A stretch of 64,000 nucleotides of DNA from an uncultured virus (IMG/VR IMGVR_UViG_3300008219_000006) (Duplodnaviria > Heunggongvirae > Uroviricota > Caudoviricetes), in IMG/VR virus record IMGVR_UViG_3300008219_000006. One strand, given 5' to 3'. Position 1 is the first letter of the stretch, and each line of letters opens with the position of its first letter. The translations under genes and the position numbers were made by a program. Below the pieces are notes generated by a model. The model was not told the DNA's origin. It saw only the letters and a list, made by a program, of their open reading frames with translations, and ran no database searches. Shown in pieces: positions 19,812 to 37,746 of this stretch.

Positions 19812-19823
19812 AGGAGATTATGT

Positions 19824-20258: not shown

Positions 20259-20272
20259 CATAGGAGAAATAG

Positions 20273-21253
20273 ATGACTGATCAACAAGTAAATGAGACTC
20301 CACAGACTCCAGAGCCAACTCCAACGGAACAATTGGCTACGGAACAATCTACACCGGAACTATCTCAAGGTGGAATTCCTGAAAACATTGCTCAAGAAGA
20401 TATTGCACAATATACTCATGAGAAACAGGCGTTCCTAAGTCATGTCAGAGATCAAGGGAAGGAAATCCCTGCAAACTTTAAGAATGCAGATGGTTGGTTT
20501 GATAGTTTGTTTGAAGCCCAAAAGAATTATACTCAAGCTCGTCAAGAAATTTCTGAGCTTAAGACTCAATATAATGAAAATGGAATTACAAATCCAAACT
20601 ATGATCCCAACGCAGGACAACCTGCCGTTGAAGCACCTATTGCTGATCCTCAAAAAGGGGAGCAGCTTCAGATTGATACTCCTCCTGAACCCACTACGAA
20701 AGAAAGTGCCTTAGATCAGGTTACTGTGAACGAGTGGAATAAATGGGGAGAAGAAATCGAGGCTAATGGAGAACTTACTCCTGAGTCTAGAGATCAAATC
20801 AGAACAAAGATGGGTGTTACTGATGAAGTGATTGATCATTTTGTTTATGGAAGACAAGCAGCTAATAAGGAAGCTTTCCGTACTGCTGCTGGTCATGTTG
20901 GGGGAGAAGAAAACCTCAATAATATTTTGGGTTGGGCGAGAGATAATCTCGAAGGTGGCGAACGGGATGCTATTAATGCACAGCTTCGTTCACCTAGTTA
21001 TGCTACAACTCTTCTGGGGTTGCAACAACGCTACAATCAGGCTGCTTCTAGTATAAGGCGACAAGAGCCTACACCTACTCCAAACAGGAGACAAGCGGGT
21101 GAAGCTATGTCTAAACAAGTTGTAGGGTATGCAAGTCAACAAGAGATGATGGCAGATATGAGAAACCCAAGATACAAAGTTGATCCTCGATTCCGAGAAG
21201 CTGTACAACAAAGAGTTAATGCTTCTCAAGGAATTATACAGGGTCACTTTTAA
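20273..21253 (+). CDS. Capsid assembly scaffolding protein (gp9)
   Basis: VGGEENL..IL.WA and GYASQQEMMADMRNPRYKVDPRFREAV; position between portal and capsid. Confidence 0.9.
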   Translation: MTDQQVNETPQTPEPTPTEQLATEQSTPELSQGGIPENIAQEDIAQYTHEKQAFLSHVRDQGKEIPANFKNADGWFDSLFEAQKNYTQARQEISELKTQYNENGITNPNYDPNAGQPAVEAPIADPQKGEQLQIDTPPEPTTKESALDQVTVNEWNKWGEEIEANGELTPESRDQIRTKMGVTDEVIDHFVYGRQAANKEAFRTAAGHVGGEENLNNILGWARDNLEGGERDAINAQLRSPSYATTLLGLQQRYNQAASSIRRQEPTPTPNRRQAGEAMSKQVVGYASQQEMMADMRNPRYKVDPRFREAVQQRVNASQGIIQGHF

Positions 21254-21397
21254 TTAATGCGTTTGAAACAATAAATATTCTTAGGGGATATTGAATGGTT
21301 TCCTTTTACCAAAGAACTCGAAAGAATAATTCTAAGGTAGCTGTCGTATATTGTATTTTTATTTTAAATTCATAATATATGATAAAGGAGATTTATC

Positions 21398-22924: not shown

Positions 22925-22960
22925 TAATTATATTATTTTTATTTATAATATTATATTGAC

Positions 22961-23006
22961 ATTCGCCCTCTCTTCTCGAAAGGGGAGAGTGGGTTTTTAG
23001 TTTTTT
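22961..23006 (+). terminator. Intrinsic terminator after the capsid gene (T-phi analogue)
   Basis: ctctcttct-cgaa-aggggagag stem with G-U pairs, followed by tttttagtttttt. Confidence 0.75.
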
Positions 23007-23021
23007 ATAAGGAGCACTATA

Positions 23022-26000
23022 ATGGGAATGATTTCTAAGTTAGAAGCTATTAATCGTATGCTCCTCAATAGTGGGGAGCAAATAGTAACATCTCTTGATG
23101 ATGACCAATCTGTTGATCTAACGATAGCTAAATATGTTTTCAATGAAACTGTTAGAGACTATCAGTTAAGAGGTACACTACACAACAAAGATATCAAGAA
23201 GTATTTTCTTGGTTCTGTTGTAAACATGGGTCTACCCACTACTACTACTGCAAATACTGTGCTGTTGGATTCTGGTACACTGAAGACGTTTACGTTTGAT
23301 ACTGGATTATCTATTAGTGTTGTTTTTACAGCCAATACTATTCCATCTGATGGATTAACATTGGCTTCTTATGGTAAGAATTGGATTAAACAAATAGAAG
23401 AAGGCGACTCAGGACATGATGCTATTTCTAATATGTTCGGGACTACCACGACATCCGATGCTGTTAAGTTAAGAACTATAGATGGTACGGATACTAGTGT
23501 AACTGTTGATGTTTCCTACCTTATGGGTGTCTGTGAAAGCTTTACCGTATCTCCTAACTATAATGGGTCTGGATTTGCTGATGGGGATGAGGTAAGAATT
23601 AAACCAGTAGCTTCTGGCTTTGGTGCTCATATTAATCATGGCGGTACTCATGCCTTTGAAGATCCTCTCATTGGAGATCTAGAAACAACTAGATGGATCT
23701 GGGATTCAGTAAGTGCTGCTAATACTACTAGTAATACTAGTTGTTGGGGAGCTGAAGAATATAATGCTGGTGGTGTCGTATGTACCGTAACTGCAAGTAC
23801 TGGTGCTCTTCGATATTTTGAAGATGGTTCTGGATCTACTGCTCCACAAAAGACTTCTTCTAGTGTTCTTCTGGATACTAGTACGTCTGTAACCAATGCA
23901 ACAAACAACTTCTGGAACCTATCAACATCGACTACCAAATCCTATCCGGGATATAACTATAGTTCTAGTAAAACCAAGAGTCAAGAGATTCAATACTTAA
24001 GTGGTACTGGTACTGGTAAAAGAGCTAGGGCTAATATAACACTGGCTGATGGTGTTGTCAAAACATTAGGTGACTTTAAGGATAGAGGAAAACTAAACAC
24101 AGCAGGAACCTATGTCCTTTTCCCTCCTTATCAAGGCAGCTACCAAGATCTTAGTGGATCTAGTAGATCTAGTGTAACTACAACTATTAAAAATAATGTG
24201 CTTCCTCCCGATGTTGAATCGGATAGTAATGCAAGTTTGTGTCTTGAAGATGCTGGTGAACTTAACTCATCTAACTTTACTGCGGCAACGTGGTATACGT
24301 TTGATAGTAGAATAGCAGGGTTGGATGGAACATCTAAACTTTATACTCATCCCACCTCCTATACAGGAGACGATGGAGAATCATATACCTGTCAAATTAA
24401 AGGATATGTTAATAATAAAGTATTAAACCCTATTACGTTTAATCATTATTTACTACGAGAGCTAACTACTATTGGAACAGCGGCATATACGGCTACTGGA
24501 TTTCAAGAACAAATTCTAACCTCTACTACTAAGAGTTCTGGGGGTGTTAACTGTAAAGCATTATTTAGAGAATCATCAGACAAACTCATTGATGTTCAGT
24601 TGGTAGATGGAGGATATGGATGGGAAGTAGGAGATGTCATTACATTTGTTTTTGCAGATAGCTCTAGTGTTCCAGCAGATACAAGCGTTGCTCTTAAACA
24701 GAAGAAAGTAAGTATAACAATCCCTGCCTCAAATACATATCATCCGTCTGGAAGATCTCTTGTTTCTACTCTTGGAATTCAGAAAATTAAAACTATGCCA
24801 GCATCTTCTAACTATAGAGGAGAAGCTCTTTGGCATGGTGGTACTACAGACGATGATACAGGATCAGTTGGTTGTCTTCATATGCTTGGTATGAATAATA
24901 TATACGGAGCAACTGGAGGTACTGCTGGCTTTGATTTTGCTTCTGGAAGTACAGGTAGACAATTATATTATCTTGTTTGGGATACTGGAACAGATGTAGA
25001 GAATTGTATTATTCAAGGAAATGAGTCTGCAAGCGGAAATGTAGATCTTGAAGCTATTGTCGATAGCGGTAGAGGATATGAGGTTGAGGTTGGAAGGGCT
25101 AGTTCTTTGAAACTTAAGAGAGTTTCTGATGATGTAGAATCTGTAGCTTTGGATATTAAGTTAGGGTTTCCAGATGCGGGTCTTGGTTCTGTTCTTAGTG
25201 CTATAGCCAGCAAGAGAGGTATTACTGGTCCTCTAATAAAGATGAAGAGAGAAGTAACCAGTACAAATCAGAAGACAGTAGCCGATGTTAGTTATCCATC
25301 GTCAGGTGCTCTTAGTGCAGAGTCATACTTTGCTCCATCGTTCTACTTTTATACAGAAGATGCAGCCTCTACCTATAATTCAGCTGATGATCAGAATCTA
25401 TATACTGGTGTGGTTGATGCTGCTACTCTTGTTCATAATGGTGCAGACTATACTGCATCTACGACCCAAGAATATGAGATTAATGATACTGGAGCAGGTG
25501 CAGCTGCTAGTTTGACCGCATTTGTATTTGCTGGAGCGATTGATCTTGGAGAAACCATACAATTTATTTCTACTGATGGTACAGATAAGACTTATGAGTA
25601 TAGTACTTCATCTAATGGTACTGTTCTTACCAACGGTAATATTGCTGTTAATAGAGATACTTCCCCTCTTGCTGCTGAAGCAGCTGCTAACTTAAAAACA
25701 GCTATGGAGGGTTCTAATGGACATGGTGGTTCTAGATTTAATGTAGCAATAGCTACTAATGAATTAACTATTACTCAAATGATAAAAGGAACGGCAGGAA
25801 ATACAACAGTTACTGTAAGTAGTTCATTTAATGATGGTATTTCTGGTACTGTAGCAACCGCCTTTACTGGTGGTACTGATGCTAGAGCAAGTCTATATAT
25901 CAGTGATGTATTAAATGGTGTTATTACTGACTTTACTATTATGAATCCCGGTAGTGGGTATGTTGTAGGAGATGTTCTCACGATCAAGTCTCCTTCAACC

Positions 26001-27113
26001 AGTACATCTTCGGTTGTATTTAGAGCAGGAGAAGTTACAAGCGGATCTATATCTGGATTAACTTTGAAGTATACTGATAAGACTGATATTGTCGGACCCG
26101 ATGCCTTTACAAGTTATGGTTGGGGATATAGTAATGAAATGGTAGATGATAATACTAATTATCCAGATGTTACTTCTAATGTAACCGAGTTTGCTGTTTG
26201 TGAGGTAGTTAGTGGTTCAGGTGTTATTCATGATGCCGTAGCTTCGGTATTTAATGTAAGAGGTACAGTAGGAGGAACAAATACTATTACAAGTGGTGTA
26301 GTTTATGCTGTTGATGACCAAGCCGATGACACTTCAAGTGCCTTAGTAAGAGGTATGCAACTGACTGTTGATGGAGATAGTACTGTTATTTCTAATAGTT
26401 ATGTTTCGTCTATCTTCAATCTTACAAAAGTTAAAAATGTTCAGCCAGCTTCGGTATCTATTCTGTCTTCTGGACATAAGTATTCAGATGGAGATACTGT
26501 TTCCATTAGCTATACCGATACCGCAGGAACAAGTGCAACATATTCCCTTCCTGTTAATGCTATATCAAAGAAGATAGTCTTACAAGAAAACGCAGAGATA
26601 TTTGACCTTACCGAAGGTCCTGTTAATAAAACAATCTTATCTGCAAGATATGCAAATGGTCATTTAGAAGGCGACTTTGAATATGATAGTGATGATATTC
26701 TAATAAATGGTGCAGACTATTTTAGACAACAAGATGGAAAGATATATCTAAAGAATCTTACAAACGATACTCTTGAATGGGATGATACTAAAGTTACTGA
26801 TGGTAGAAATGTTGAAGTTATTTATTTCATTCCTTGGGAAGAAGTTGAAACTTCTATGCAAAGTTCTATAATAGATAGTGCTGTTCGAGAATATCAAAGA
26901 ATAGTTGTTGGAGACTTGAATGTAGATCAGATTCTATTAAGACGAGAGACAGAATCCAAATGGCTGTCTAAGTCTAAAGATATTACCAGTCGTGGAAGAA
27001 ATATTTTAGTTACTGGTGATCCTAATGTTTATAAAGCTGTTCACAGAAATAGGACTGTAGGATCTAATGATGCTTGGCCTAGAAGAAAATGGAGAGGACT
27101 ACCTAATGGCTAA
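23022..27113 (+). CDS. Tail tubular protein A (gp11-like) with ~1100-aa internal insertion
   Basis: N-terminal LEAINRMLLNSGEQIVTSL...YQLRG and C-terminal VEVIYFIPWEEV...SAVREYQ..VGD resemble gp11 ends; position after the capsid. Confidence 0.8.
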   Translation: MGMISKLEAINRMLLNSGEQIVTSLDDDQSVDLTIAKYVFNETVRDYQLRGTLHNKDIKKYFLGSVVNMGLPTTTTANTVLLDSGTLKTFTFDTGLSISVVFTANTIPSDGLTLASYGKNWIKQIEEGDSGHDAISNMFGTTTTSDAVKLRTIDGTDTSVTVDVSYLMGVCESFTVSPNYNGSGFADGDEVRIKPVASGFGAHINHGGTHAFEDPLIGDLETTRWIWDSVSAANTTSNTSCWGAEEYNAGGVVCTVTASTGALRYFEDGSGSTAPQKTSSSVLLDTSTSVTNATNNFWNLSTSTTKSYPGYNYSSSKTKSQEIQYLSGTGTGKRARANITLADGVVKTLGDFKDRGKLNTAGTYVLFPPYQGSYQDLSGSSRSSVTTTIKNNVLPPDVESDSNASLCLEDAGELNSSNFTAATWYTFDSRIAGLDGTSKLYTHPTSYTGDDGESYTCQIKGYVNNKVLNPITFNHYLLRELTTIGTAAYTATGFQEQILTSTTKSSGGVNCKALFRESSDKLIDVQLVDGGYGWEVGDVITFVFADSSSVPADTSVALKQKKVSITIPASNTYHPSGRSLVSTLGIQKIKTMPASSNYRGEALWHGGTTDDDTGSVGCLHMLGMNNIYGATGGTAGFDFASGSTGRQLYYLVWDTGTDVENCIIQGNESASGNVDLEAIVDSGRGYEVEVGRASSLKLKRVSDDVESVALDIKLGFPDAGLGSVLSAIASKRGITGPLIKMKREVTSTNQKTVADVSYPSSGALSAESYFAPSFYFYTEDAASTYNSADDQNLYTGVVDAATLVHNGADYTASTTQEYEINDTGAGAAASLTAFVFAGAIDLGETIQFISTDGTDKTYEYSTSSNGTVLTNGNIAVNRDTSPLAAEAAANLKTAMEGSNGHGGSRFNVAIATNELTITQMIKGTAGNTTVTVSSSFNDGISGTVATAFTGGTDARASLYISDVLNGVITDFTIMNPGSGYVVGDVLTIKSPSTSTSSVVFRAGEVTSGSISGLTLKYTDKTDIVGPDAFTSYGWGYSNEMVDDNTNYPDVTSNVTEFAVCEVVSGSGVIHDAVASVFNVRGTVGGTNTITSGVVYAVDDQADDTSSALVRGMQLTVDGDSTVISNSYVSSIFNLTKVKNVQPASVSILSSGHKYSDGDTVSISYTDTAGTSATYSLPVNAISKKIVLQENAEIFDLTEGPVNKTILSARYANGHLEGDFEYDSDDILINGADYFRQQDGKIYLKNLTNDTLEWDDTKVTDGRNVEVIYFIPWEEVETSMQSSIIDSAVREYQRIVVGDLNVDQILLRRETESKWLSKSKDITSRGRNILVTGDPNVYKAVHRNRTVGSNDAWPRRKWRGLPNG

Positions 27114-30100
27114 AAGAAGTAGTAAAGTTGTAATACCTATTAACTCTCTTAGTGGTGGAGTTGGGAGAACTCCTCCAAGCAAACGGCAACTAAACGAGGC
27201 ACAAGAACTAGATAACTGTATTGTTACTATAGAAAAATCTTTAGAGAAAAGAAATGGATTCAAGTTTATTGATGGTACTGTTGATGAGGATAGTGATAGA
27301 GACGGAGCTTTGAACATTCCTTTGCTTAGTGCAAACGATGACGTACACTTTGATTGGCTGGATTTAGATGGTTCCAATAGGTTTCTTATTGCTATTAACT
27401 CTTCTTCTACTAGTTTTGAAAATCTTATTTCTGTATTTAAAATAGATGATAATGGTATTGTTACAGAAGAAACTGTAGATACTACTGTTGAAAATGCTTC
27501 AGATTTTTATGACTATGTTACCTATGCCAAAGAAGCTTTCTCTACAAGTGAAAGATTAAAGACAATTCCCTTTGGTTCTTCTTTGTTTATTCTCAATAAT
27601 CAGGTAGAAGCAGGATATGAACAAGGATTTCCGGGAGAAGATATTACCTACCTAACCTCCAGATATGCTGAGGGTGGGGAGATTGCTGAGTTTAAGACAA
27701 CTATTAATGTAGGAACTATCGGTAATATTAATAACTTTAGATCTTTAATTGTTACTTGGGATTGGGTAAACGAGACTCTTTCAGATATTGAATCAACTCC
27801 AGACGAACTAAAGACAGGTAGTTTTAGTGCGTCTCTTGAAGCTATAACTTTTACAGATACAGCCGCAGATCCAGATGTTATCAGTGTTAACTATCCTCGA
27901 ACAACCAATGATATTGTTCGTTCTTTGCTTAAAGATCTTTTGTTAAATCCACCCGGAGGTAATAATTTTCCGTTTGAGCCTGTGTCTATTGAGATAGAAG
28001 GAACAACTGCCGAAGCGAAGATAGTTTTTAAGTCTACTACAGAATATAAATACTCTATGGTCGTTACTGCTGTAGAAGGTGTTGAGGATTCAACAACTGG
28101 ACCCGGTTTTACTGCTGCATTAGATGTTAGTGAATCAGGTTCTGCTCATACTTCTCAGATTAATGTTGATAAAGACATCAGAACTGATGATGTTCTGGGT
28201 CAATCAGTTCAAAACTTTTCTAAAATTCCTTTGCCGCCAGCAAGCGATGATAATGTAAATCTTAATGGTGCAGAAACAGTCTTAGCTGAGATTGCAGGAG
28301 AGACAGGAAGTACTGCGGGGTATGGTAAGGTTTTCTTTACAAGAGAATCCTTTGGTACTACTCCTTCTGCATACTATAGAACTATTAGTACCGATAAACA
28401 ACCTTTCTTTGAGAGAATTAGATCTCAAGATGGAAATTGTTTATTCGATAAAAAGAAAATGCCTATTATTCTTGACTATGTTACTGCTGAGAACAAGTGG
28501 GTTGTTAAATATCCTACTTGGAAAACAAGAACAAGCGGAAATAAAATAAGTAATAAAGGACCATTGGTATTTGAGGATGGTGCTAAAGCTAAGATTACGG
28601 ATATGTGTATATGGAGGAACAGACTTTGGTTTGCTTCTGATGATACTGTATTTTCGTCTGCAAGTAATGACTACTTTAATCTTTGGCTTGATGACCCTGA
28701 TAATATAGTTGATACCGATCCTATTGATATACGAGCTGGTGCAGAGAAGTCGAGTACTATAGCTAGTATGGTTCCATTTAAAGATTATATTTTTGTTAAT
28801 ACTCTAGGAGATACACAATACGAAGTGGTGGGCTCTGAGAATCAAATCAGTCCCTTTACTGCAAAGCTTGCTCCCTCTTCTTTTTATTCTACTGAACCTT
28901 TGATTGATCCTGTTCCTATGGGATCTCAGATATATTTCTTTTCTCCTTATAAGTTATTCCTATATTTTTCTAGCTCATCTGCTACAGTTAATCAGGCTAT
29001 TGAAGTAAGCAAACATGCTGAAGGTTATCTACCAAAAGAAATATCTTTAATGGAAGCTTTACCTAATAAAGATATGATTATTATGGTTGATAAAGTATTC
29101 TATAATACAATGTATGTATATATAAATAGATGGGAGGGAGATAGAGTAGCTCAGAATGCTTTCTTTAAATGGACTCTTCCCTCTAATTCTAAGGTTCTCA
29201 GTGTAAGAGAATTTGATAATGAAATATTTATTACGGTAGCACGTACTTGGTATACGGCTTTTGGTACAAATCCACGAACAAGTATATTTCTACAACGAAT
29301 GAACATGAATACAGATCCAGAAACAGTACCAAGAATGGATCGAAGATCTGTTAGTAGCGATTATCTATTTAGTCCTGAGGGTAACATTGCTATTATTCCT
29401 GAGTTATACGTTACCTATGCTACTATTACTGAACTTGGAGAGATCTATACTGGACAGGCTGACTTCTTTGAGTGGGAAGTGGTAAACGAAGGAGCTATAT
29501 CCAGAAGATTTAATGCGTCTATATCTTCTTATAATTCTGATGATAATTTTATAGAATGGGAAGGTGGAGAAGCACAAGAATATCTTTACAATCCAGAAGG
29601 TACTGGATATGAATTACTAAACTCAGGTAGCTTGGCTCCAGATGGAACTCTTTTAGATAGAACAACTGTATTTCATAAGATTAATGAAGAAAAATTAAAA
29701 GCTAGATATAATGAGTTATGTAATTCCTGTGATGAAACGATTATGTTTGAGAATGAGATTGTTTTTGAGGATATTACAGATCCTGATAATATAATTGAAT
29801 ATAGAAGGAAGCATAGGTTCTTTGTAAACCAGCTTACACCACTTGATACATGTCCATATGGCAATACTCCGGGATCGGCTTGTTGTCCTGAAGGAACGTA
29901 TCTTGCTGGCTTTGAGTGTACAACTTGTGACAGTAGTGAATGCGATCCTTATGGTGTATGTGAGGATGGTCCTTCTGGTCCTGAGGGATGTTGTGATGAT
30001 GGCTTATCTGGTCCCTGTTGTTGTGGAGGTAGTGAAGTACAGTGTCCAAACGGAGATTGTAGTCTTTGTGATTGCCCAGAACCATGTAATTGTACTGGTC

Positions 30101-33100
30101 AATGCGGTTGTGAATGCGATCCTGATACGGTTGAATGTTGTCCTAATGGTGGTGGAGAACCCCCTTGTTGTCCTAATGGTTCGGCAGCACAAGGAGAATC
30201 TTGTGCAAAGTTTAACGGATGTGATAATTGTCCATGTGCTGATGGTTCTTTGCCTCTAGAAACAGGAGTTCCTTGTTGTGTAGGAAAGAATGGAGACATT
30301 CTTGGTCCTTCACCTTGTTGTCTGAATCCTAGCGATACATATTATTTAGAATCTTGTGCTAGTCTTGGTTGTCCTGATGATTGTTGTTGTTGTGATTCTG
30401 TAGATGATTGCTATGAGTGTGACAATCAACAAGATCCTTGTTCAGGTGGGGATCAACAGGGTAAGTGTCCCGATCCAAAGTGTGGGTGTGAGGGTGTTTG
30501 TCCTGATGGAACTTGTATGCAAGATGGTGATTGTTCTTGTCCTAGTAATTGTGGCTGTGACTACGGCCCTTGTAATCCTTGTAACTGTGATTTAGGATGT
30601 CTTGACCATAATGGACATTGTATAGGTGGTGTTCAATGTGGAGATAATGAAGATTGTCCTGAAGGTTTTTATTGTTGTTTCAATAGCTATTGCTGGCCTG
30701 ATGGTCGAGCTTGTCTTCCTTGGACACTACAAGGAGGACCCCACTTAGAATGTTCTACTGCATCGGATTTCTTTGACTATGATAGTGGACCCCATTTTGC
30801 TGTTTTAGATGTGTATTCTATGCTGGTTGGTGGAACATCTTCAGTTGCGTGTAGTCAAACTATTGCAGGAGTTCCTACTTGTCATACTGATGATTGTATA
30901 TCAGACTCAGGAGAAGATCTTCCTCAAGGTGGTATTTGTCATACTAATTATTTAGGAGGATTATTCTGTAATGACGATTGTTCTCCTTATTCTTTAACAG
31001 GAGACGATTCATCTGAATATTATCGAAAGGTTTCTCATTGGTTAGATGACGATAATACTAGCCTATCAATGACTTGTAGTGGTTTAAGAGTAGGAAGCAT
31101 AGGTTCTCTAGCAAGCGGTTCTTGTTGGGTAGATGTTCATATACCGTCTGGATTTGGTCCTCCATTTGTTAGTTATCCAAACGATGATTGTTTTACTAAT
31201 TATATAGATTTTCCTTATGAAATACCAGCAAGCAATCGTAAGATTGTTCTTAATGCTTTCCCCGGTACTGATACAGATTCGGCAAACAAGGTAATTATAG
31301 ATTGGAAAGATCCTGCGTTTGAGAATTTTTGTGAAGATGCGGCTAGCCAAGGAGAGGGTTTGTTGGCTTGTGGAGCAACTTTGTCAGTTTGTGGTACTAC
31401 GCTTTCTAATAGAAATAAAGGTCCTTCTCAGGTTTTTGCTGGTCCTATTAAACTACTTAGGTTTGCCAATGGATCTTGTCAAGTTACCATTCCCTCAACT
31501 GGTGAACCGTATTTGGTAGATACTACTGGTGATGGTGAAGGTGATACACCAATGTATTATTCTATGATTAAGTTTCTAGGAGTTAGTTATCATCACATGG
31601 TTGCTAAGAATATTAGACCTTGTGTAGAAATATGTGCTTTGGCTGGTTGTATTAATACTGCTCCCTGTAATAGTATTTCTGCCTGTTGTACCGAGGATCC
31701 TCCTTCTAATAATGAAATTTCATTTGATCCAAGTGATTGTGAGTGTGGGAAGGCAGATTCTGCTGACGCAAATCCTGCTGCGAGTGTATACAATCCTTTG
31801 TTTGATATGGTTAGTTCTTTGTATGGTCAATCAGACTCTAGTAAGGGAAGAAAATCAAAGACTATAGATGATTTACATAACAAGTATAGAATATCTCATG
31901 ATAGAAAGACTGAACAAAATACAAGAGCACCTTTGTCTCCCGGTTCTTCTTATCAAACCGTTCAATCACAGACTACTTATACAGAGAATGTGATCCTTGG
32001 AGAAATTCCTTCAACTAAGGATACTTTCTTAAGAGCTGTTTTAGAAGATTCAATGAAAGATAGAAACGGTCCCTTTAAATCGTTTGGTGCTGCTAATTAT
32101 CTAGGTAGATTGTATTCTGGTCCTCAGTTGTTTGCGAATTCTGTGAGACATAAAAGGTCTGGAAACGATAAGAACGTAGCATGGAGAGATTCTTTGAATA
32201 TTCCTCCCGAAGTAGAAAAAATGAGGGGTATGACTATTGGTAAATACCCAGATGGAACAGTAAAGGGATCAAACTTCGTTGGATACTCTTTTACTATTCA
32301 GTATTCTAGTATTTATATGGGATCAGGTAGTGGGTCTACTCCAGTACCGAGCTTTCCCGGTCCTATAGATAACAACTCAAATTATGATACTCTATCTTCA
32401 GCCGATGGTCGTAGCTTTATACAACTTCCCTATCACAATCCCAATATTTTTGAGGTTGTGTTAGGAAATGAATGGGAAGGTGTTGGTGACTATCGACCGG
32501 GACAGGTTTTTAAATGTTATAACTATAGTTATGGTGCTGGATATGCTAGATATGAAATTGATGAGTCTACTATGGGTGTTAAAGTTGTTGGAACTGTTGG
32601 TGATATCGAAGGAGATGGTTCTCCTAAGCGTACTGTACTAGAATTAATTGGTATCAATGATTTCCTACTACCTCCTTATGCCAAGGAGTTTATTGATTAT
32701 GGTTCTATTACAGATAGTAGTACAGATACAAACACTTCATTACTTCCTAGTGATCTGGCATATGATAGTAATTATGTAGCTGATATTGTACAATACAACC
32801 AATTAGATTGTGGTACACTTGAAGAATCTCTTGATAATATTGGAGAGAATCTTTACTTTGTCTATGATTTTGGGATTATTACTAATAATGCTACTTTCTT
32901 GAAACAAGATTTTATTATTGGAGAAAACTTTAGGATGAGAGCAATGCTATCGCCTCCAACTTATAGAGATCAGAATAACAATACTATTGAAGGTGTCTTT
33001 AAAGTTTTGACAATGAATACAAGGCACTTTAATACTGGAAAATATAGGCTTAATGTATATAAAGACAATGCTATAGTATCTTCAGTATTAAATAGTCCAC

Positions 33101-33309
33101 CAAAAAGATCAAAGATTTTTGGAATAGATCCTTTTTATGAAGCGTCTATTGCTACAGAATATCAAGGTGAGTTTACTCAGAAGGTATTTTTAAATGCCAA
33201 CGATTGTTTTATTACTATTACTAGTAATACTCCCGATCCAGTAAACATTACTAATATTGAATTGAATGGTACTTTTGTACCTAGAAAAAGATCTAGTGCA
33301 GAATCATAG
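27106..33309 (+). CDS. Tail tubular protein B / nozzle (gp12-like) with large, partly Cys-rich insertion
   Basis: INSLSGGVGRTPPSKR...LEKRNG, WRNRLWFASDDTV.SS..DYFNLW...DTDPIDI, QNAFFKW, C-terminal SNTPDPVNITNIELNG. Confidence 0.85.
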   Translation: MAKRSSKVVIPINSLSGGVGRTPPSKRQLNEAQELDNCIVTIEKSLEKRNGFKFIDGTVDEDSDRDGALNIPLLSANDDVHFDWLDLDGSNRFLIAINSSSTSFENLISVFKIDDNGIVTEETVDTTVENASDFYDYVTYAKEAFSTSERLKTIPFGSSLFILNNQVEAGYEQGFPGEDITYLTSRYAEGGEIAEFKTTINVGTIGNINNFRSLIVTWDWVNETLSDIESTPDELKTGSFSASLEAITFTDTAADPDVISVNYPRTTNDIVRSLLKDLLLNPPGGNNFPFEPVSIEIEGTTAEAKIVFKSTTEYKYSMVVTAVEGVEDSTTGPGFTAALDVSESGSAHTSQINVDKDIRTDDVLGQSVQNFSKIPLPPASDDNVNLNGAETVLAEIAGETGSTAGYGKVFFTRESFGTTPSAYYRTISTDKQPFFERIRSQDGNCLFDKKKMPIILDYVTAENKWVVKYPTWKTRTSGNKISNKGPLVFEDGAKAKITDMCIWRNRLWFASDDTVFSSASNDYFNLWLDDPDNIVDTDPIDIRAGAEKSSTIASMVPFKDYIFVNTLGDTQYEVVGSENQISPFTAKLAPSSFYSTEPLIDPVPMGSQIYFFSPYKLFLYFSSSSATVNQAIEVSKHAEGYLPKEISLMEALPNKDMIIMVDKVFYNTMYVYINRWEGDRVAQNAFFKWTLPSNSKVLSVREFDNEIFITVARTWYTAFGTNPRTSIFLQRMNMNTDPETVPRMDRRSVSSDYLFSPEGNIAIIPELYVTYATITELGEIYTGQADFFEWEVVNEGAISRRFNASISSYNSDDNFIEWEGGEAQEYLYNPEGTGYELLNSGSLAPDGTLLDRTTVFHKINEEKLKARYNELCNSCDETIMFENEIVFEDITDPDNIIEYRRKHRFFVNQLTPLDTCPYGNTPGSACCPEGTYLAGFECTTCDSSECDPYGVCEDGPSGPEGCCDDGLSGPCCCGGSEVQCPNGDCSLCDCPEPCNCTGQCGCECDPDTVECCPNGGGEPPCCPNGSAAQGESCAKFNGCDNCPCADGSLPLETGVPCCVGKNGDILGPSPCCLNPSDTYYLESCASLGCPDDCCCCDSVDDCYECDNQQDPCSGGDQQGKCPDPKCGCEGVCPDGTCMQDGDCSCPSNCGCDYGPCNPCNCDLGCLDHNGHCIGGVQCGDNEDCPEGFYCCFNSYCWPDGRACLPWTLQGGPHLECSTASDFFDYDSGPHFAVLDVYSMLVGGTSSVACSQTIAGVPTCHTDDCISDSGEDLPQGGICHTNYLGGLFCNDDCSPYSLTGDDSSEYYRKVSHWLDDDNTSLSMTCSGLRVGSIGSLASGSCWVDVHIPSGFGPPFVSYPNDDCFTNYIDFPYEIPASNRKIVLNAFPGTDTDSANKVIIDWKDPAFENFCEDAASQGEGLLACGATLSVCGTTLSNRNKGPSQVFAGPIKLLRFANGSCQVTIPSTGEPYLVDTTGDGEGDTPMYYSMIKFLGVSYHHMVAKNIRPCVEICALAGCINTAPCNSISACCTEDPPSNNEISFDPSDCECGKADSADANPAASVYNPLFDMVSSLYGQSDSSKGRKSKTIDDLHNKYRISHDRKTEQNTRAPLSPGSSYQTVQSQTTYTENVILGEIPSTKDTFLRAVLEDSMKDRNGPFKSFGAANYLGRLYSGPQLFANSVRHKRSGNDKNVAWRDSLNIPPEVEKMRGMTIGKYPDGTVKGSNFVGYSFTIQYSSIYMGSGSGSTPVPSFPGPIDNNSNYDTLSSADGRSFIQLPYHNPNIFEVVLGNEWEGVGDYRPGQVFKCYNYSYGAGYARYEIDESTMGVKVVGTVGDIEGDGSPKRTVLELIGINDFLLPPYAKEFIDYGSITDSSTDTNTSLLPSDLAYDSNYVADIVQYNQLDCGTLEESLDNIGENLYFVYDFGIITNNATFLKQDFIIGENFRMRAMLSPPTYRDQNNNTIEGVFKVLTMNTRHFNTGKYRLNVYKDNAIVSSVLNSPPKRSKIFGIDPFYEASIATEYQGEFTQKVFLNANDCFITITSNTPDPVNITNIELNGTFVPRKRSSAES

Positions 33310-33318
33310 GAGATAAAA

Positions 33319-33519
33319 ATGGGTTTAGGAGATATTGTATCTTGGTTAATTAGGGTTGTTACCTTTGGATTTATCAAGGAATGTGATGACTGTCGTAAGA
33401 AAAAGGAATGGTTAAACAAAATTCGACTATGGAAGAAGTGTGACTGTGAAAAGAAACGTCCTTGTGATTGTGAAAAGAAAAAGGAAGACTGTGATTGTGA
33501 GAAAGCGAGTCAGGTATGA
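33319..33519 (+). CDS. Small Cys-rich protein (GLGD...CxxC..K..LN; three CDCEK units)
   Basis: AGGAG RBS; repeated CDCEK. Confidence 0.65.
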   Translation: MGLGDIVSWLIRVVTFGFIKECDDCRKKKEWLNKIRLWKKCDCEKKRPCDCEKKKEDCDCEKASQV

Positions 33520-33728
33520 CTACTAAAGTAGAAGCATTACAAGAATCATTGTTTAATCGTTTAATTGAGGATCTTGATGATCCTATTAAGTGTACACCCG
33601 GACTATATCAGGTAGTTCGGGGTGTTATTAATGACAACAAGAGAGATTTAGATAGTCTTCCAAGTAATATAATGGAAGAACTTCAAGAGAAGCTGTCTGA
33701 ATCTGTCCCATTCAAGTTTGGAGGATAA
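33516..33728 (+). CDS. Terminase small subunit (T7 gp18-like)
   Basis: RLIEDLDDPIKCTPGLYQVV resembles T7 gp18 RMLADLSDDERRSPQLYNAI. Confidence 0.65.
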   Translation: MTTKVEALQESLFNRLIEDLDDPIKCTPGLYQVVRGVINDNKRDLDSLPSNIMEELQEKLSESVPFKFGG

Positions 33729-33730
33729 TA

Positions 33731-34393
33731 ATGGGAGCTAAACAAGTACAGTTTAGGAGAGGAAGTACTGAACAGCATGATGGAACCGATGGTACTTCTG
33801 GTTTTGCGGGAGCAGCGGGTGAAATTACGGTTGATACAGGATCTGATACTGATTCAACCTATACTGCAAGAGTACATGATGGTACAACAACTGGTGGATA
33901 TAAGCTTGCTAAACAATCTACTGTAGATGCTTTGAATGATCTTGATTCTACCGATGGAACTGCTGTAAGATCTGATTCAGATAATACAAATATAAATGGT
34001 GGGATTAGATATACAAATTCTTCTTCTGAATGGAAATATAATACTGTTAAAGAAGCTATTACTGCTGAAGGATCGGGCAGCGGTTTTTTTCAAGTTTTGT
34101 TTAATGCATACGGTACGGGTACGTTTGATACACCTTTAAATACTATTGTTGCTGTTGGAACTGAGACTAGTCCTACGTCTGGTAAAATCCAGACCAATGG
34201 TAGTACTACTATTGACATAAGTGGTGGTGGAACTAGCGAAACATGGCAAGTGTTAGCTGCTAAAACTACTGATGGAAACCATATCGAATTACATGGTACT
34301 CCAACAATTAAGTATGATGAGTTATCATCCACAAATACTACTATTACACACGGTTTAACTAACTGTGTCTGGATAGCGATAAGGACGGCATAG
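33731..34393 (+). CDS. Short fibre-like protein with Mtd-N-type N-terminal domain
   Basis: VQFRRGST...FAGAAGEITVDT...VHDGTTTGG..LA motif. Confidence 0.7.
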   Translation: MGAKQVQFRRGSTEQHDGTDGTSGFAGAAGEITVDTGSDTDSTYTARVHDGTTTGGYKLAKQSTVDALNDLDSTDGTAVRSDSDNTNINGGIRYTNSSSEWKYNTVKEAITAEGSGSGFFQVLFNAYGTGTFDTPLNTIVAVGTETSPTSGKIQTNGSTTIDISGGGTSETWQVLAAKTTDGNHIELHGTPTIKYDELSSTNTTITHGLTNCVWIAIRTA

Positions 34394-34394
34394 T

Positions 34395-34553
34395 ATGGAG
34401 ATACTACCAGAACTTATCGTAGGTTTGGGCATCATGGGAATGCTTTGGAAAATTCAAAGAGAGCTGGGACATATTACTACAGCTATTGATTCTATTAAGG
34501 AGATTGTTCACGATCATGAGGATCGAATAAGAGCTATAGAAAAAGACAATTAA
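34395..34553 (+). CDS. 52-aa membrane plus coiled-coil protein
   Basis: MEILPELIVGLGIMGMLW...HDHEDRIRAIE; below ORF-track cutoff. Confidence 0.6.
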   Translation: MEILPELIVGLGIMGMLWKIQRELGHITTAIDSIKEIVHDHEDRIRAIEKDN

Positions 34554-34566
34554 ATAAAGAGGAGAC

Positions 34567-35322
34567 TTGTTTATGTGGGCAAGAATATTATTAGCTATTG
34601 AGATCGCTTTTGCAACCTGTGTATATGGTTCTGTTAATGAAGAACTAAAGTGTCATGATTCATTTATTTATGTAGATACAAACAACATGGACGAGTTTAA
34701 CGACTGGCATTTTTGGGGGTATATAGATTATACTGTTCCCAAATATTTTAATAAGCTTTGTAAAGAAGCTAAAGAAAAAGAACTTGTTATTAGAATTATT
34801 ATAGATTCTCCCGGTGGAAGTGCTTTATCGGGCTACAAACTATGTAGAATAACTAAAGAATATAAGGCTGTTGCTGTTGCTGGTTCCTTTTTAGGAGCCC
34901 ATAGTGCTGCTGCTATATGGTGGGCAGGATCTTCTGAAAGAGAGTTTAAAGAAATGGGTTCTGAGGTTTCTTTTCATAGAACCTATATTCAAACAGGCGA
35001 TAATGAGTGGAGTTATAATCATCCACTAATATCTTTGTTTCATTTAAAAGAAGATAATATTATTACAGAAAATTTTAATGTTACCTTAGCAACTTTAATT
35101 AAAATGTATATGGATATAGGAATGGAACATGGACCAATTTCTGTTGTAGAGTTTAGATTAACAGGGGGTGGTGTCTTTATATCTTACTTTGATGGTAATG
35201 ATAGAAAGGTTTTAGTTCCCGCAAACCATAATTGTATGTCAAAGTGGCATCATTATATAGAAAAAGATTTAAGAATTAATAAACCTAATTCTCCTATCTT
35301 AATAAAGAAAGAGGTGAGATAG
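34567..35322 (+). CDS. ClpP/crotonase-fold serine peptidase-like protein with signal-peptide-like N-terminus
   Basis: IIIDSPGGS, AHSAAAIWWAG and VSFH motifs. Confidence 0.65.
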   Translation: MFMWARILLAIEIAFATCVYGSVNEELKCHDSFIYVDTNNMDEFNDWHFWGYIDYTVPKYFNKLCKEAKEKELVIRIIIDSPGGSALSGYKLCRITKEYKAVAVAGSFLGAHSAAAIWWAGSSEREFKEMGSEVSFHRTYIQTGDNEWSYNHPLISLFHLKEDNIITENFNVTLATLIKMYMDIGMEHGPISVVEFRLTGGGVFISYFDGNDRKVLVPANHNCMSKWHHYIEKDLRINKPNSPILIKKEVR

Positions 35323-35323
35323 A

Positions 35324-36145
35324 ATGGCTAAGAAGAGACGAGGAGCTAGAGCTAATAAAACAAGAAGAGCTAGAAAACCTGCGTTTAGTGCTACCGCTGG
35401 AGTACCTCAACAGAGGGGTAGCAATCCAGATTATCCTGAAGGTCCTTGGCCTTATGATCCTGTGCCTGATATTCTACCAATAAGACCTGAAAGAATGCCT
35501 CCGGGAACAGATCCAACAAATCCTATACCAAAACTTCCGGGAGGAGAACCTCCTATGTTTACGCCGGGAGGCCCACAACAGCCTTGGATAGATCCAGCTG
35601 TAAAACCCTTACCCTTTCGTCCTGTTCCTTTAGATCCTATTCGACCCGACAAAACAAATCCTTTTGATATTGGAACTCCTACTAATCCTAATTTTGAAGG
35701 CCCAAATATTCCACCTATGGTTACACCAACACAATTGGAAAAGATAAAGGCAAAGCACGCTAAGGAAGGACTTTACGATCTAGATCGGTACGGTCCTAAG
35801 CCCGGTTTTGGATCATTTGATTGGCTTCCCGGAAGTCCCCTACCGTGGCTTCCTCCTATCTTTAAGAAAAAATTCTGGAATCCCCCAGACTACCATCAAC
35901 CTACTTACCCAGATCTTCCAGATCCGACATACGGAGATCCTCCAATGATTCCTGAAGGACCTCCAACGCGCATTACTCCCGAAGAGCCTCCCTTCCCACC
36001 GTGGCGAAGTAGTAGTCCTTCGCTTCCTCCTTTTACTAGTAGTAGTCCTTCGCTTCCTCCTTTTACTAGTAGTAGTCCTTCGCTTCCTCCTTTTACTAAA
36101 CAAAAGATGACTCCAAATCCTTCGGGACTTACTAGAAGAAAGTAG
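35324..36145 (+). CDS. Proline-rich protein with basic N-terminus
   Basis: GAGGTG RBS; very high Pro content; contains a tandem repeat. Confidence 0.65.
   Translation: MAKKRRGARANKTRRARKPAFSATAGVPQQRGSNPDYPEGPWPYDPVPDILPIRPERMPPGTDPTNPIPKLPGGEPPMFTPGGPQQPWIDPAVKPLPFRPVPLDPIRPDKTNPFDIGTPTNPNFEGPNIPPMVTPTQLEKIKAKHAKEGLYDLDRYGPKPGFGSFDWLPGSPLPWLPPIFKKKFWNPPDYHQPTYPDLPDPTYGDPPMIPEGPPTRITPEEPPFPPWRSSSPSLPPFTSSSPSLPPFTSSSPSLPPFTKQKMTPNPSGLTRRK
36008..36097 (+). repeat. 3 x 30-bp perfect tandem repeat (SSSPSLPPFT)
   Basis: agtagtagtccttcgcttcctccttttact at 36008, 36038 and 36068. Confidence 0.95.
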
Positions 36146-36151: not shown

Positions 36152-36328
36152 TTGGCAAAAAAATGGATTCAAAAAGCAATTAAACGTCCGGGTGCTTTAA
36201 CCAAGAAGGCTAAGGCTGCTGGCAAAACCGTTTCACAATTCTGTGTTAGTACAAAGGGTAAGAACACAGTAACAAAAAGACAATGTGCTTTAGCTAAAAC
36301 GCTAAAGGGATTAAAAAGGAGAACATGA
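36152..36328 (+). CDS. 58-aa basic protein (WIQKAIKRPGAL family)
   Basis: TTG start; MAKKWIQKAIKRPGAL...ALAKTLKGL; below ORF-track cutoff. Confidence 0.7.
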   Translation: MAKKWIQKAIKRPGALTKKAKAAGKTVSQFCVSTKGKNTVTKRQCALAKTLKGLKRRT

Positions 36329-36723
36329 CTATGGCAGTCGGAAAAGGAATTGGACCTTTGGGATCAGTGTATCATCCTGTAATGGAAGTGGTACAATTAT
36401 ATAAAGCAGCTTATTCAGGAACATCAGATGCCAATGGTGATGGTGTTGAAATTGATATTAAAAGATTTCGTACTGGATTATGCTGGGTAGATTTTGATGA
36501 AACTGCAACTAATGCAGATGAAGTTGCTATTAATATTCAAGGGGCATTAACAGATACAGCAGCAGAGTATGTAACTTTACATACTTTTGCAGCTACAACT
36601 GATGGTGGAGCTTTTCCAGCAGCAGCAGTTGTAACCTTGTTTCCTTTTATGCGAATACAAGTAGATAATACAGATGGATCAACCGTTGCCTCGATTACAG
36701 TAGATGTTCGTTTAGGTAATTAA
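36325..36723 (+). CDS. Putative small beta-sandwich virion protein
   Basis: AAGGAG RBS; Ala/Thr/Asp-rich composition. Confidence 0.6.
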   Translation: MTMAVGKGIGPLGSVYHPVMEVVQLYKAAYSGTSDANGDGVEIDIKRFRTGLCWVDFDETATNADEVAINIQGALTDTAAEYVTLHTFAATTDGGAFPAAAVVTLFPFMRIQVDNTDGSTVASITVDVRLGN

Positions 36724-36735
36724 AGGAGATCTAAT

Positions 36736-37746
36736 ATGCCATTATGGAAACCAACTAATATTGAAGCGATGGGAGATGTCCCCGATACTAAACTTGTTTG
36801 CTGGTATAGCTCTAAAGATAGCCGTACCATTAAGCTTGCTCATAGTGGTGAACTTACTTATTGGCAAGATAGATCAAAAAATAATAATGTATTAATAGGA
36901 GATTCTGGCAAAAAACCCACTCTTACGTTTACTACTACAGGAAAACCTCAGTTTACATTTGATGGATCTAATGATACTTTAACTACTGCTGCTGATCCTA
37001 GTGGATGGGCTATAGGAACTAATAATACTTGGTGGATGATAGGTATGTCTTTTCCTGTTGCCAATGATCCCAAAGGTGATGGTAGTAGTGCTTATTATAC
37101 TTTGTTAGGAAAAGATACAAATGACGCTAATGAACCTTTAAATCAAATGTTTAATGCCTCTGGCAGTAGAGAAGCAGATCAATGGAGGGGTAAATTCGAT
37201 TTAAATCAAGATAGTGCTGAGCAATTTACTACTGCGGGAGATATTGTTCCAGTAGATAATAAACCTTTTGTTTTTGAAAGTGGGAGAGTAAAAGATAATG
37301 CTGCTGGAGATACATCTGCGGATAATGGAGAATGTTTTATATATTTTAATGGAGCAGATTATTCAGCTGGAGCTGACCATTCTACTGGTTCTTTAACTAA
37401 TACAAACGAATTGAGGGTGGGTAGTTTAGATGGAGGAGCAGTATCTAAAATATCTACTTTAGAAATTGTTGTGTATACTAGAGGAGCAAGTACTGCTCAA
37501 TATGATACATGGTTAAGAGAAGAACTTGAGGGGTATATTGCACATAGTATGGGAATACAAACTGATTTAAGAACTAAAGAGTTTCATACTGGATCTGATA
37601 CTAATAATCATCCCTATAGATTTGGGGCTCCAACTTGTGGTCATTCAGTATCAGGACAAAATCTAGGAACTAAATTCTTATCGCACTCTTTAACTAATCA
37701 ATATGAATTAAATGATGGATTAAATACTTATTGTTCAGGAAGGTAA
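36736..37746 (+). CDS. Concanavalin/LamG-like virion protein
   Basis: LVCWY, WQDRSKNNN, FDGSNDTL, LEGYIAH and HPYR..AP motifs. Confidence 0.65.
   Translation: MPLWKPTNIEAMGDVPDTKLVCWYSSKDSRTIKLAHSGELTYWQDRSKNNNVLIGDSGKKPTLTFTTTGKPQFTFDGSNDTLTTAADPSGWAIGTNNTWWMIGMSFPVANDPKGDGSSAYYTLLGKDTNDANEPLNQMFNASGSREADQWRGKFDLNQDSAEQFTTAGDIVPVDNKPFVFESGRVKDNAAGDTSADNGECFIYFNGADYSAGADHSTGSLTNTNELRVGSLDGGAVSKISTLEIVVYTRGASTAQYDTWLREELEGYIAHSMGIQTDLRTKEFHTGSDTNNHPYRFGAPTCGHSVSGQNLGTKFLSHSLTNQYELNDGLNTYCSGR

What the first reader, a model, noticed from the sequence alone, without database searches (positions are those of the whole stretch)
29340..32400. Tail nozzle gp12 carries a ~1000-aa insertion including an extremely Cys-rich domain
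Seen: between gp12-like segments lies an insert. Positions 29851-30714 (~288 aa) contain about 62 Cys by hand count (~21%, with CC, CCC, CCCC and CxCxC runs) amid Asp/Gly/Pro. Cys enrichment continues to ~31750, and there is a Ca-loop-like DTTGDGEGD. Established: T7 gp12 is ~800 aa, and phage proteins fold in a reducing cytoplasm. Inference: a metal-binding (metallothionein-like) or post-lysis disulphide-locked stalk on the tail tip, possibly for receptor or mineral binding or metal scavenging.
Basis: partly seen in the sequence, partly recalled or inferred. Interest (0 to 1): 0.75.

Follow-up and report, generated by a model that had tools for sequence, protein, structure and literature searches.

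The report
Phage tail with built-in cysteine arms
An uncultured marine T7-like phage appears to have lost its normal tail-fibre gene and instead carries more than 1,100 extra amino acids at the fibre-attachment site of each of its two tail proteins; one of these extras is packed with conserved cysteines, and it is probably a built-in, disulfide-stiffened arm used to reach the host.

Summary
In detail: 62 Cys in 288 aa, inside one 2,080-aa T7-like nozzle gene. Other assemblies bridge both junctions, and orthologues at 53% and 42% identity share the insert. The position was misread. The ~1,100-aa insert lies in the nozzle's fibre dock on the side of the tail, not at the tip, and runs to ~32,850. 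The adaptor gp11 carries a second ~1,100-aa insert. The T7 gp17-type fibre gene follows the nozzle in 38 of 41 nozzle loci of this clade; this phage is one of the three without it. Best reading: six built-in side arms replace the fibres and are locked by disulfides late in assembly or after lysis. Metallothionein-like metal binding is disfavoured: the domain is acidic and has fewer CxxC than chance. A 66-aa GLGD-CxxC gene follows the nozzle and sits directly behind unrelated Cys-rich genes in several lineages, but it also occurs without them. The insert has no family hit and no usable fold. Closest precedent: the nozzle-rope of phage A1002. The scan has noted other Cys-rich tails with small Cys helper genes on other DNA, but not this one.

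The parts
23022..27113 (+). Tail adaptor gp11 homologue, 1,363 aa (clade relatives ~210-270 aa, T7 196 aa)
   Evidence: PF17212, phrog_446; relatives' lengths
23253..26552 (+). ~1,100-aa Ser/Thr/Gly-rich insert in gp11 (aa ~78-1177), placed after helix 2 where the beta region begins (inferred adaptor fibre dock). Holds four G-x-G-Y-like repeats and a mobile domain shared with other clade virion proteins; only 0.8% Cys
   Evidence: HMM of short gp11s splits at aa 78/1178; motifs; 71% identical 1,368-aa copy in L005
27067..33309 (+). Tail nozzle gp12 homologue, 2,080 aa (probable start 27106)
   Evidence: PF25675 197.6 bits vs cut-off 27; PDB nozzles incl. T7 gp12 E 9e-13
27106..29388 (+). Nozzle core: N-terminal platform strands, beta-propeller, tip region, start of fibre dock; no large insert here
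   Evidence: clade HMM positions 12-700 match aa 18-771
29389..29841 (+). Insert, N-flank (aa 775-925), 2 Cys, well conserved; inferred base of the arm
   Evidence: non-Cys identity 89/149 and 55/145; no family
29842..30741 (+). Insert, Cys-rich core (aa 926-1225): 62 Cys, Gly/Pro/Asp-rich, degenerate (C)CP[DEN]G..G..C modules
30742..31776 (+). Insert, middle part (aa 1226-1570): 22 Cys, the most variable part; candidate distal, host-facing region
   Evidence: Cys 18/22 and 17/22 conserved vs 7-9 in shuffles; most within-cluster changes
31519..31545 (+). Dx(D/N)xDG-like acidic loop DTTGDGEGD, possible Ca2+ site, not conserved in all orthologues
31777..32856 (+). Insert, C-flank (aa 1571-1930), 2 Cys, well conserved; inferred return path and base of the arm
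   Evidence: non-Cys identity 187/335 and 137/339
32857..33309 (+). End of fibre dock and C-terminal platform of the nozzle
   Evidence: PF25675 positions 657-792; clade HMM 737-878
33319..33519 (+). 66-aa GLGD-CxxC protein (amphipathic N-part, CxxC, basic helix, three C-terminal CxC), in the slot where relatives have the fibre gene
   Evidence: relatives weakly hit phrog_32048, unknown function
33516..33728 (+). Terminase small subunit
   Evidence: PF11123
33731..34393 (+). 220-aa protein with an Mtd_N first domain; candidate adhesin on the arms
   Evidence: PF18454 E 5e-7; found only in the three gp17-less genomes among 11 records
36325..37746 (+). 132-aa small beta-rich protein plus a 336-aa protein (lectin/LamG-like by recalled resemblance only); probable virion accessories, not tied to the insert
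   Evidence: a similar pair lies in an ordinary 36-kb T7-like phage with a 795-aa nozzle and a gp17 fibre

Best explanation
The insert is a built-in side arm of the nozzle that stands in for the lost T7-type tail fibre. Shown: it interrupts the nozzle's fibre dock; the adaptor has a second insert of similar size; and no gp17-type fibre anchor is encoded. Inferred: because both ends stay tethered to the fibre dock, the ~1,140 aa loop out and return. The conserved Cys-poor flanks form the base and the Cys-rich and variable middle parts lie outermost, on each of six nozzle subunits. The 88 Cys per insert stay reduced in the cytoplasm and oxidise late or after lysis into many small disulfide-knotted modules, giving a stiff, protease-resistant arm. 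The arm contacts the host itself or carries the Mtd_N adhesin. The 66-aa GLGD-CxxC protein is probably an accessory for folding or oxidising such Cys-rich virion proteins; this is the weakest step.
For: Position: clade HMM and Pfam put the break between T7 gp12 ~610 and ~650, the fibre dock 'at the outer surface' (PMC6702177 passages). The fibre-dock segment is 84-146 aa in 28 of 32 parsed nozzles, 403 in P0031 and 1,183-1,206 in the three Cys-rich ones. Fibre loss: gp17-N lies beside 38 of 41 distinct nozzles; the exceptions are this phage, L005 and L051. It is absent from whole records G002 (95%) and G006 (100%) and present in G004, G005, G007-G010. Controls: T7 gp17 left out of the model, E 1.5e-4; a distant T7-like phage, E 3e-5. 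The three gp17-less phages group on the terminase tree (97/91) and alone carry Mtd_N; Mtd sits at fibre ends in Bordetella phage (PMC2408619 passages). Cys selection: 42/49, 39/53, 18/22 and 17/22 aligned Cys kept, above all 60 shuffles in each test; Cys counts are unchanged in 7 and 6 full-length cluster members. The acidic, CxxC-poor, CPxG-rich pattern fits disulfide modules (likeness to extracellular Cys modules is recalled). Precedents: the A1002 fibre dock extended into a 300-A rope (PMC13730344 sections 9, 11, 12); Cys-rich regions docking fibres by disulfides in Pam3 (PMC9942802 passages).
Against: No structure: AlphaFold on 3 sequences gave mean pLDDT 26.5, so arm shape and disulfides are untested. 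No part of the gp12 insert hits any fibre, lectin or adhesin family. L051 lost gp17-N yet has a 249-aa gp11 and a 146-aa fibre dock, so fibre loss did not require these inserts, and its branch is flagged as long. P0031 has a 403-aa fibre dock and its fibre status is unknown. The genes beside P0003 could not be seen. About 1-2 kb of the genome is probably outside the window (my estimate from collinearity). A first, noisier fibre HMM gave E 0.0078 to an 85-codon early frame at 1502 (E 0.22-1.6 with the cleaned model). GLGD also occurs without a Cys-rich neighbour in 24 of 28 loci that held neither nozzle nor terminase of this clade and in 5 of 5 other phage records.
Confidence: 0.55

Rival explanations
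1. The nozzle insert is armour or a spacer: a disulfide-hardened shell or particle-adhesion domain. Host recognition is done by the gp11 arm, the Mtd_N protein or the tip domain.
For: The clade inserts a mobile ~90-aa domain into nozzles, fibres and small virion proteins alike (56 proteins), so decoration by insertion is routine here. L051 manages without gp17-N and without this insert. Disulfides raise tail stability in other phages (PMC13576161 passages; Jabs passage).
Against: The insert sits at the fibre dock and coincides with loss of the fibre gene. The middle part shows the most within-cluster variation (8/380 and 9/370 sites vs 1/260 and 3/270 in the Cys core; small numbers), as host-facing parts often do.
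Confidence: 0.22
2. The cysteines bind metals as thiolate clusters (metallothionein-like, Zn/Cu/Cd or Fe-S), for structure in the cytoplasm or for scavenging.
For: 21% Cys with CC and CxC runs. The protein folds in a reducing cytoplasm, and no thioredoxin-, Erv- or Dsb-like family was hit by the window ORFs scanned.
Against: CxxC 6 vs 12.6 expected; CC and CxC at chance; D+E 49 vs K+R 5 gives no counter-charge for thiolate clusters; His 2. No metallothionein or zinc-finger hit at E<=1. Cys number differs between orthologue cores (62, 46, 44).
Confidence: 0.12
3. The insert is translated but cut away during maturation (a processed chaperone or pro-domain), leaving a normal nozzle.
For: It sits in a surface loop. 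A nearby ORF (34567-35322) has a weak ClpP-related hit (E 0.0056, 16.6 bits vs cut-off 120).
Against: No intein or peptidase family in the insert. Removal would leave a tail with no gp17-type fibre. Conserved flanks and Cys argue for a lasting structure.
Confidence: 0.08
4. Frame or assembly artefact.
For: The sequence is uncultured and low in complexity.
Against: A single frame, gap-free independent contigs across both junctions, and orthologues at 53% and 42% with the same layout.
Confidence: 0.01

Closest known systems
T7 nozzle gp12 / adaptor gp11 / fibre gp17 (PF25675, PF17212, PF03906; PMC6702177, passages read)
   Same: Same gene order and homologous platform, propeller and fibre-dock sequence; the fibre normally fits between the nozzle and adaptor fibre docks.
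   Different: Both docks carry ~1,100-aa inserts and no gp17 N-domain is encoded. The nozzle is 2,080 aa rather than 794.
Pseudomonas podophage A1002 nozzle-rope gp39 (PMC13730344; abstract and sections 9, 11, 12 read)
   Same: A nozzle fibre-dock domain extended into a long appendage that takes over the fibre's scaffold role.
   Different: A1002's nozzle is split into two genes, the rope protein is 620 aa and carries 11 dimers of 147-171-aa fibre proteins, and the paper has no occurrence of 'disulfide'. Here the nozzle is one gene, the insert is Cys-rich, the adaptor is also extended, and no rope-binding dimer was identified.
Disulfide-linked virions: cyanophage Pam3 (PMC9942802, passages), mycobacteriophage Jabs (bioRxiv 10.64898/2026.07.24.740622, abstract and one passage), siphovirus tail tubes (PMC13576161, passages)
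   Same: Phage structural proteins with functional disulfides; Pam3 docks fibres on Cys-rich wedge regions.
   Different: The Pam3 and tail-tube cases use a few Cys per subunit, and Jabs spreads ~1,700 bonds over the whole virion. Here 62 Cys sit in 300 aa of one domain of a podovirus nozzle.
Bordetella phage Mtd (PF18454; PMC2408619, passages)
   Same: An Mtd_N-headed protein that could sit at the end of an appendage.
   Different: Only the 37-position N-domain matches. The window protein is 220 aa, and no diversity-generating retroelement was seen among the ORFs scanned.
Marine Autographiviridae group AG-10.1 (PMC12361551; section 18, passages, supplement rows)
   Same: Large genome, giant RNase_H-bearing ORF; relatives L024, L052 and L064 are listed as AG-10.1.
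   Different: The parts read do not mention tail inserts, fibre loss or Cys-rich proteins, and hosts are unresolved (scores 0.14-0.21).

Membership tests
T7-like nozzle (PF25675) | Profile score above the curated cut-off, N- and C-terminal parts present | tested here: met
   197.6 bits vs 27; C-terminal part 657-792
T7-like nozzle (PF25675) | Gene order portal, scaffold, capsid, adaptor, nozzle | tested here: met
T7-like nozzle (PF25675) | Compact fibre dock (~90-140 aa) between propeller and platform | tested here: not met
   1,206 aa vs 84-146 in 28 of 32 parsed nozzles
T7-like tail | gp17-type fibre with N-terminal anchor (PF03906) | tested here: not met
   none in window, G002 or G006; controls positive
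T7-like nozzle (PF25675) | Hexamer with seven-bladed propeller | not tested
   the core was not folded; inferred from homology
Nozzle-rope (A1002 gp39) | Extension arises from the fibre dock | tested here: met
Nozzle-rope (A1002 gp39) | Nozzle split into base and rope genes | tested here: not met
   one ORF holds propeller and platform
Nozzle-rope (A1002 gp39) | Small fibre-dimer subunits (140-170 aa) threaded on the rope | tested here: inconclusive
   132-aa candidate: pLDDT 38, no PDB match; a homologue also lies in a normal phage
Metallothionein-like metal-thiolate protein | About 20-30% Cys (recalled) | tested here: met
   20.7% over aa 926-1225
Metallothionein-like metal-thiolate protein | CxC/CxxC enrichment with Lys or His counter-residues (recalled) | tested here: not met
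Metallothionein-like metal-thiolate protein | Family profile hit | tested here: not met
   Pfam and NCBIfam, none at E<=1
Metallothionein-like metal-thiolate protein | Stoichiometric metal binding | not testable with these tools
   needs ICP-MS
Thiol-disulfide oxidoreductase (for the GLGD protein) | Conserved CxxC | tested here: met
   second Cys invariant in 12 of 12 rows; first Cys shifted in 2
Thiol-disulfide oxidoreductase (for the GLGD protein) | Thioredoxin, Erv or DsbB family hit | tested here: not met
   (only Spx at E 0.12, 12 bits vs 152)
Thiol-disulfide oxidoreductase (for the GLGD protein) | Catalysis of disulfide formation | not testable with these tools
   needs an oxidative refolding assay
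Autographiviridae AG-10.1 | Giant 3,274-5,566-aa ORF, often with PF13482 | tested here: met
   5,306 aa with PF13482
Autographiviridae AG-10.1 | Groups with listed members | tested here: met
   3 of 6 relatives' ids found in the supplement, all AG-10.1, including L052, whose copy L051 is the sister branch
Autographiviridae AG-10.1 | No SSB gene | tested here: not met
   7946-8497 hits gp2.5-like phrog_112 at E 3.8e-7

The most novel reading that the evidence does not exclude
This is a fibre-less podovirus whose adaptor (12 copies) and nozzle (6 copies) grow their own arms, and the small GLGD-CxxC protein is a mobile, phage-encoded catalyst or chaperone of disulfide formation. It would travel as a cassette behind unrelated Cys-rich virion genes: inside-nozzle, after-fibre, after-Mtd_N and replication-module placements within this clade, plus siphovirus-like contigs and a Planctomycetes prophage-like region. 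Two 2026 papers call phage-encoded disulfide machinery undescribed or an open question.
Probability: 0.2. Interest if true: 0.85.

Novelty: new variant of a known kind. Interest (0 to 1): 0.63.

Why it matters
Podovirus host range is set by fibres that plug into the adaptor and nozzle docks. This lineage seems to have replaced that interface with arms fused into both docks, a tail design seen so far only in part (A1002). It belongs to a widespread marine phage group with no known host. The Cys-rich arm is a defined probe for finding that host. The GLGD-CxxC gene is a small, easily expressed candidate for the open question of how phage virion disulfides form (PMC13576161; Jabs preprint).

Tried and rejected
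Family scans of the four insert segments: nothing below E 0.1 in Pfam or NCBIfam, nothing in PHROGs. ESM Atlas on aa 925-1565: no usable hit; on the GLGD protein: hypothetical viral clusters at 0.82-0.84, a lead only. Profile search of aa 1225-1938 against 1.84 billion representatives: 0 hits, not even the query's own relatives, so the blank is weak. Shorter standalone homologues of the insert: 0 of 3,505 candidates. AlphaFold of the insert (pLDDT 26.5) and of the 132-aa ORF (38.4; Foldseek no match): uninformative. Complex prediction of the Cys core with the GLGD protein was not available, so there is no result. Homology of the insert to the clade's standalone Cys-rich proteins: only compositional similarity, lost with composition adjustment, so 'fibre gene fused into gp12' is not shown. 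The 132-aa ORF as a member of the clade's small beta-sandwich family: hhalign probability 0.15%, rejected. Host: no cultured relative above ~40% terminase identity among the top 15 rows. A Planctomycetota host was considered from L115, but GLGD was found in only 2 of 401 genomes of that phylum, with at most 14 candidates scored each, so it is not supported. No RNA holder listed. Literature: 'tail tubular protein'+'cysteine-rich'+'phage' gave 0 papers; searches listed no report of this insert. Subscription journals and bioRxiv supplements were not searched, and one supplement of PMC12361551 was unreadable.
Full report
OBSERVATION. ORF 27067-33309 is a single frame of 2,080 aa, and 29851-30714 holds 62 Cys in 288 aa (21.5%). 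The other 10 ORFs counted have 0-1.4% Cys. Codon use inside the Cys core matches the rest of the gene and no long DNA repeat underlies it. IMG/VR contig L001 covers 17067-35950 at 99.93% with no gaps. Contigs from runs X5, X6 and X7, not marked as possible sources, bridge both insert junctions without indels; they may come from one campaign. Two orthologue clusters share the layout: P0002 (2,042 aa, 53%, 74 Cys) and P0003 (2,214 aa, 42%, 83 Cys). Their Cys counts are identical in 7 and 6 full-length members. The artefact reading is refuted.

CONTEXT. The window is most of a T7-like genome: RNA polymerase, primase-helicase, DNA polymerase A, portal, scaffold, capsid, adaptor, nozzle and terminase. 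It is collinear with the 64-kb record G002; from the offsets I estimate 1-2 kb of early region is missing. Three of six relatives' ids looked up in the supplement of PMC12361551 are listed, all as group AG-10.1, with host scores of 0.14-0.21. The window's 5,306-aa PF13482 ORF fits that group's description. One mismatch: the group is said to lack SSB, and 7946-8497 hits a gp2.5-like PHROG at E 3.8e-7. The host is unknown.

WHERE THE INSERT SITS. An HMM of 19 short clade nozzles aligns aa 18-771 to model positions 12-700 and aa 1925-2075 to 737-878. T7 gp12 aligns through the same model, which places the break between T7 ~aa 610 and ~650. Pfam PF25675 resumes at position 657. [quoted passage not shown] The insert is therefore lateral, in the fibre dock, not at the tip. 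The segment between two flanking motifs is 84-146 aa in 28 of the 32 nozzles that parsed (of 49 tried), 403 aa in P0031, and 1,183-1,206 aa in the three Cys-rich nozzles. P0031 has a different, Cys-free insert at the same site, so this site accepts insertions.

ANATOMY. N-flank aa 775-925 (2 Cys), Cys core 926-1225 (62), middle 1226-1570 (22) and C-flank 1571-1930 (2). The flanks are better conserved (non-Cys identity 60%/38% and 56%/40%) than the core (43%/29%) and middle (31%/21%). Aligned Cys are kept at 42/49 and 39/53 in the core, against 31.9+-2.2 and 30.5+-2.2 in shuffles. In the middle they are kept at 18/22 and 17/22, against 7.2+-2.0 and 9.0+-2.1. Each value exceeds the maximum of 60 shuffles. 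CC and CxC are at chance and CxxC is below chance (6 vs 12.6). CP[DEN]G is enriched (6 vs 0.2) and opens degenerate modules of the form (C)CPxG...G..C in all three proteins. The core is acidic (D+E 49, K+R 5, His 2). From general knowledge, this resembles extracellular disulfide modules more than thiolate clusters; no call names a family. The acidic loop DTTGDGEGD has a counterpart in P0003 and is deleted in P0002. Within clusters, changes are densest in the middle part (8/380 and 9/370 sites), on small numbers. Folding failed.

(1) The adaptor gp11 is 1,363 aa against ~210-270 in relatives. The extra ~1,100 aa (aa ~78-1177) start just after helix 2, which I infer is the adaptor's fibre dock. 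This insert is Ser/Thr/Gly-rich, nearly Cys-free, and contains a domain found in 56 clade virion proteins. (2) The fibre gene is missing. In relatives the gene after the nozzle is a fibre: 6 of 10 such genes tested hit PF03906, 4 above cut-off, several with beta-helix or fibre repeats. An HMM of their N-domains finds it at 38 of 41 distinct nozzles with at least 1.5 kb downstream; most positives built the model. It also finds left-out cases, including T7 gp17. The three negatives are this phage, L005 and L051. Whole records agree: absent in G002 (95% complete) and G006 (100%), present in G004, G005, G007, G008, G009 and G010. (3) The three negatives form one branch of the terminase tree (97/91; L051 flagged as long; 27 distinct sequences). 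They are the only ones of 11 records with an Mtd_N gene (model built from these three). L051 has ordinary fibre docks but a 1,420-aa nozzle extended upstream of the conserved propeller match and a separate 954-aa, 29-Cys protein, so fibre loss may predate the dock inserts.

THE GLGD-CxxC GENE. 33319-33519 encodes 66 aa with a GLGD start, CxxC and a basic helix. Homologues lie directly behind Cys-rich genes in this phage and L005; behind 2,220-2,380-aa, 91-102-Cys genes in the L011 group; behind the 954-aa gene of L051; behind 57-Cys genes in siphovirus-like L108/L109; and behind a 162-aa, 11-Cys gene in a prophage-like region of a Planctomycetes chromosome. In G009 I had scored both as absent from the tail locus; the whole record then showed an 849-aa, 60-Cys gene followed by a divergent GLGD gene, between DNA polymerase and kinase. 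Near-complete records G004 and G007 have neither. The Cys-rich partners are not detectably homologous to one another. Against a strict link: 24 of 28 GLGD loci that held neither nozzle nor terminase of this clade have no Cys-rich ORF in the fetched flanks (one is cut just upstream), and 5 of 5 other phage records (64-100% complete) have no ORF above 8 Cys per 100 aa. L155 has none within 1.3 kb upstream, and in L086 the gene follows the small terminase. So every strongly Cys-rich clade gene whose downstream neighbour I could see has GLGD behind it, but not the reverse.

MECHANISM. Shown: insert position, the second insert, fibre-anchor loss, Cys selection and gene neighbourhood. Inferred: an out-and-back arm on each of six nozzle subunits, with a conserved base and a Cys-rich, variable outer part. 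Up to ~44 disulfides per arm would form late or after lysis, the timing proposed for Jabs (passage). The arm, alone or with the Mtd_N protein, would take over host contact. I put this at 0.55, armour or spacer at 0.22, metal-thiolate at 0.12, processed pro-domain at 0.08 and artefact at 0.01.

COMPARISON. It is a T7-like nozzle by membership, with an abnormal fibre dock. It works most like the A1002 nozzle-rope (PMC13730344, sections 9, 11, 12) but is not a member of that design: the nozzle is not split and no threaded dimers were identified. Disulfide-docked fibres (Pam3) and heavily cross-linked virions (Jabs) are known. [quoted passage not shown] My searches listed no description of this insert, within the library's limits.

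VERDICT. A real, conserved, unannotated feature; a new variant of the podovirus tail rather than a new kind of system. Interest 0.63. The boldest reading, that GLGD is phage disulfide machinery, has probability 0.2.

Noticed in passing
window 46518-62438, 40211-44947, 39461-40198: The 5,306-, 1,578- and 245-aa ORFs after the terminase contain no cysteine at all. This fits ejected core proteins; the largest has an RNase_H_2 domain.
   Followed up: partly
window 35324-36145: 273-aa Pro-rich ORF ending in a 30-nt tandem repeat (about 36008-36098), with no homologue in the closest relative L005.
   Followed up: no
window 34567-35322: 251-aa ORF with a hydrophobic, signal-like N-terminus and a weak ClpP-related hit (E 0.0056); conserved in L005.
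   Followed up: no
window 23022-27113 aa 861-965; L039, L041, L060, L011, L047, L063 and others: A ~90-aa mobile domain occurs in 56 distinct clade proteins: nozzles, fibres and small virion proteins. A weak PF22639 hit lies just beyond it.
   Followed up: partly
L011:17765-24436, L015:13937-20830, L026:9500-16165, L085:726-7871: Standalone 2,220-2,380-aa proteins with 91-102 Cys and no family hit where tested, between the fibre gene and a GLGD gene.
   Followed up: partly
L139:3090-5791 (record G009): An 849-aa, 60-Cys gene plus a GLGD gene inserted between DNA polymerase and nucleotide kinase, far from the tail genes.
   Followed up: partly
L115:6311-7123: Prophage-like head-tail region in a Planctomycetes chromosome with a small Cys-rich gene followed by GLGD.
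   Followed up: partly
P0031 aa ~1415-1680: A different, Cys-free insert with G-x-G-Y repeats at the same nozzle site, related to repeats in this phage's gp11 insert.
   Followed up: partly
L051:15494-18358: Sister lineage without gp17-N: an Mtd_N protein, a 954-aa 29-Cys protein (30 cluster members) and GLGD follow the nozzle.
   Followed up: partly
window 14974-16905, 45425-46477: Adenosylcobalamin-type ribonucleotide reductase, and a LysM plus lysozyme-like protein.
   Followed up: no
window 33319-33634: Loose contig ends in runs X5-X7 suggest other phages in the same samples share the GLGD or small-terminase stretch with different flanks.
   Followed up: no
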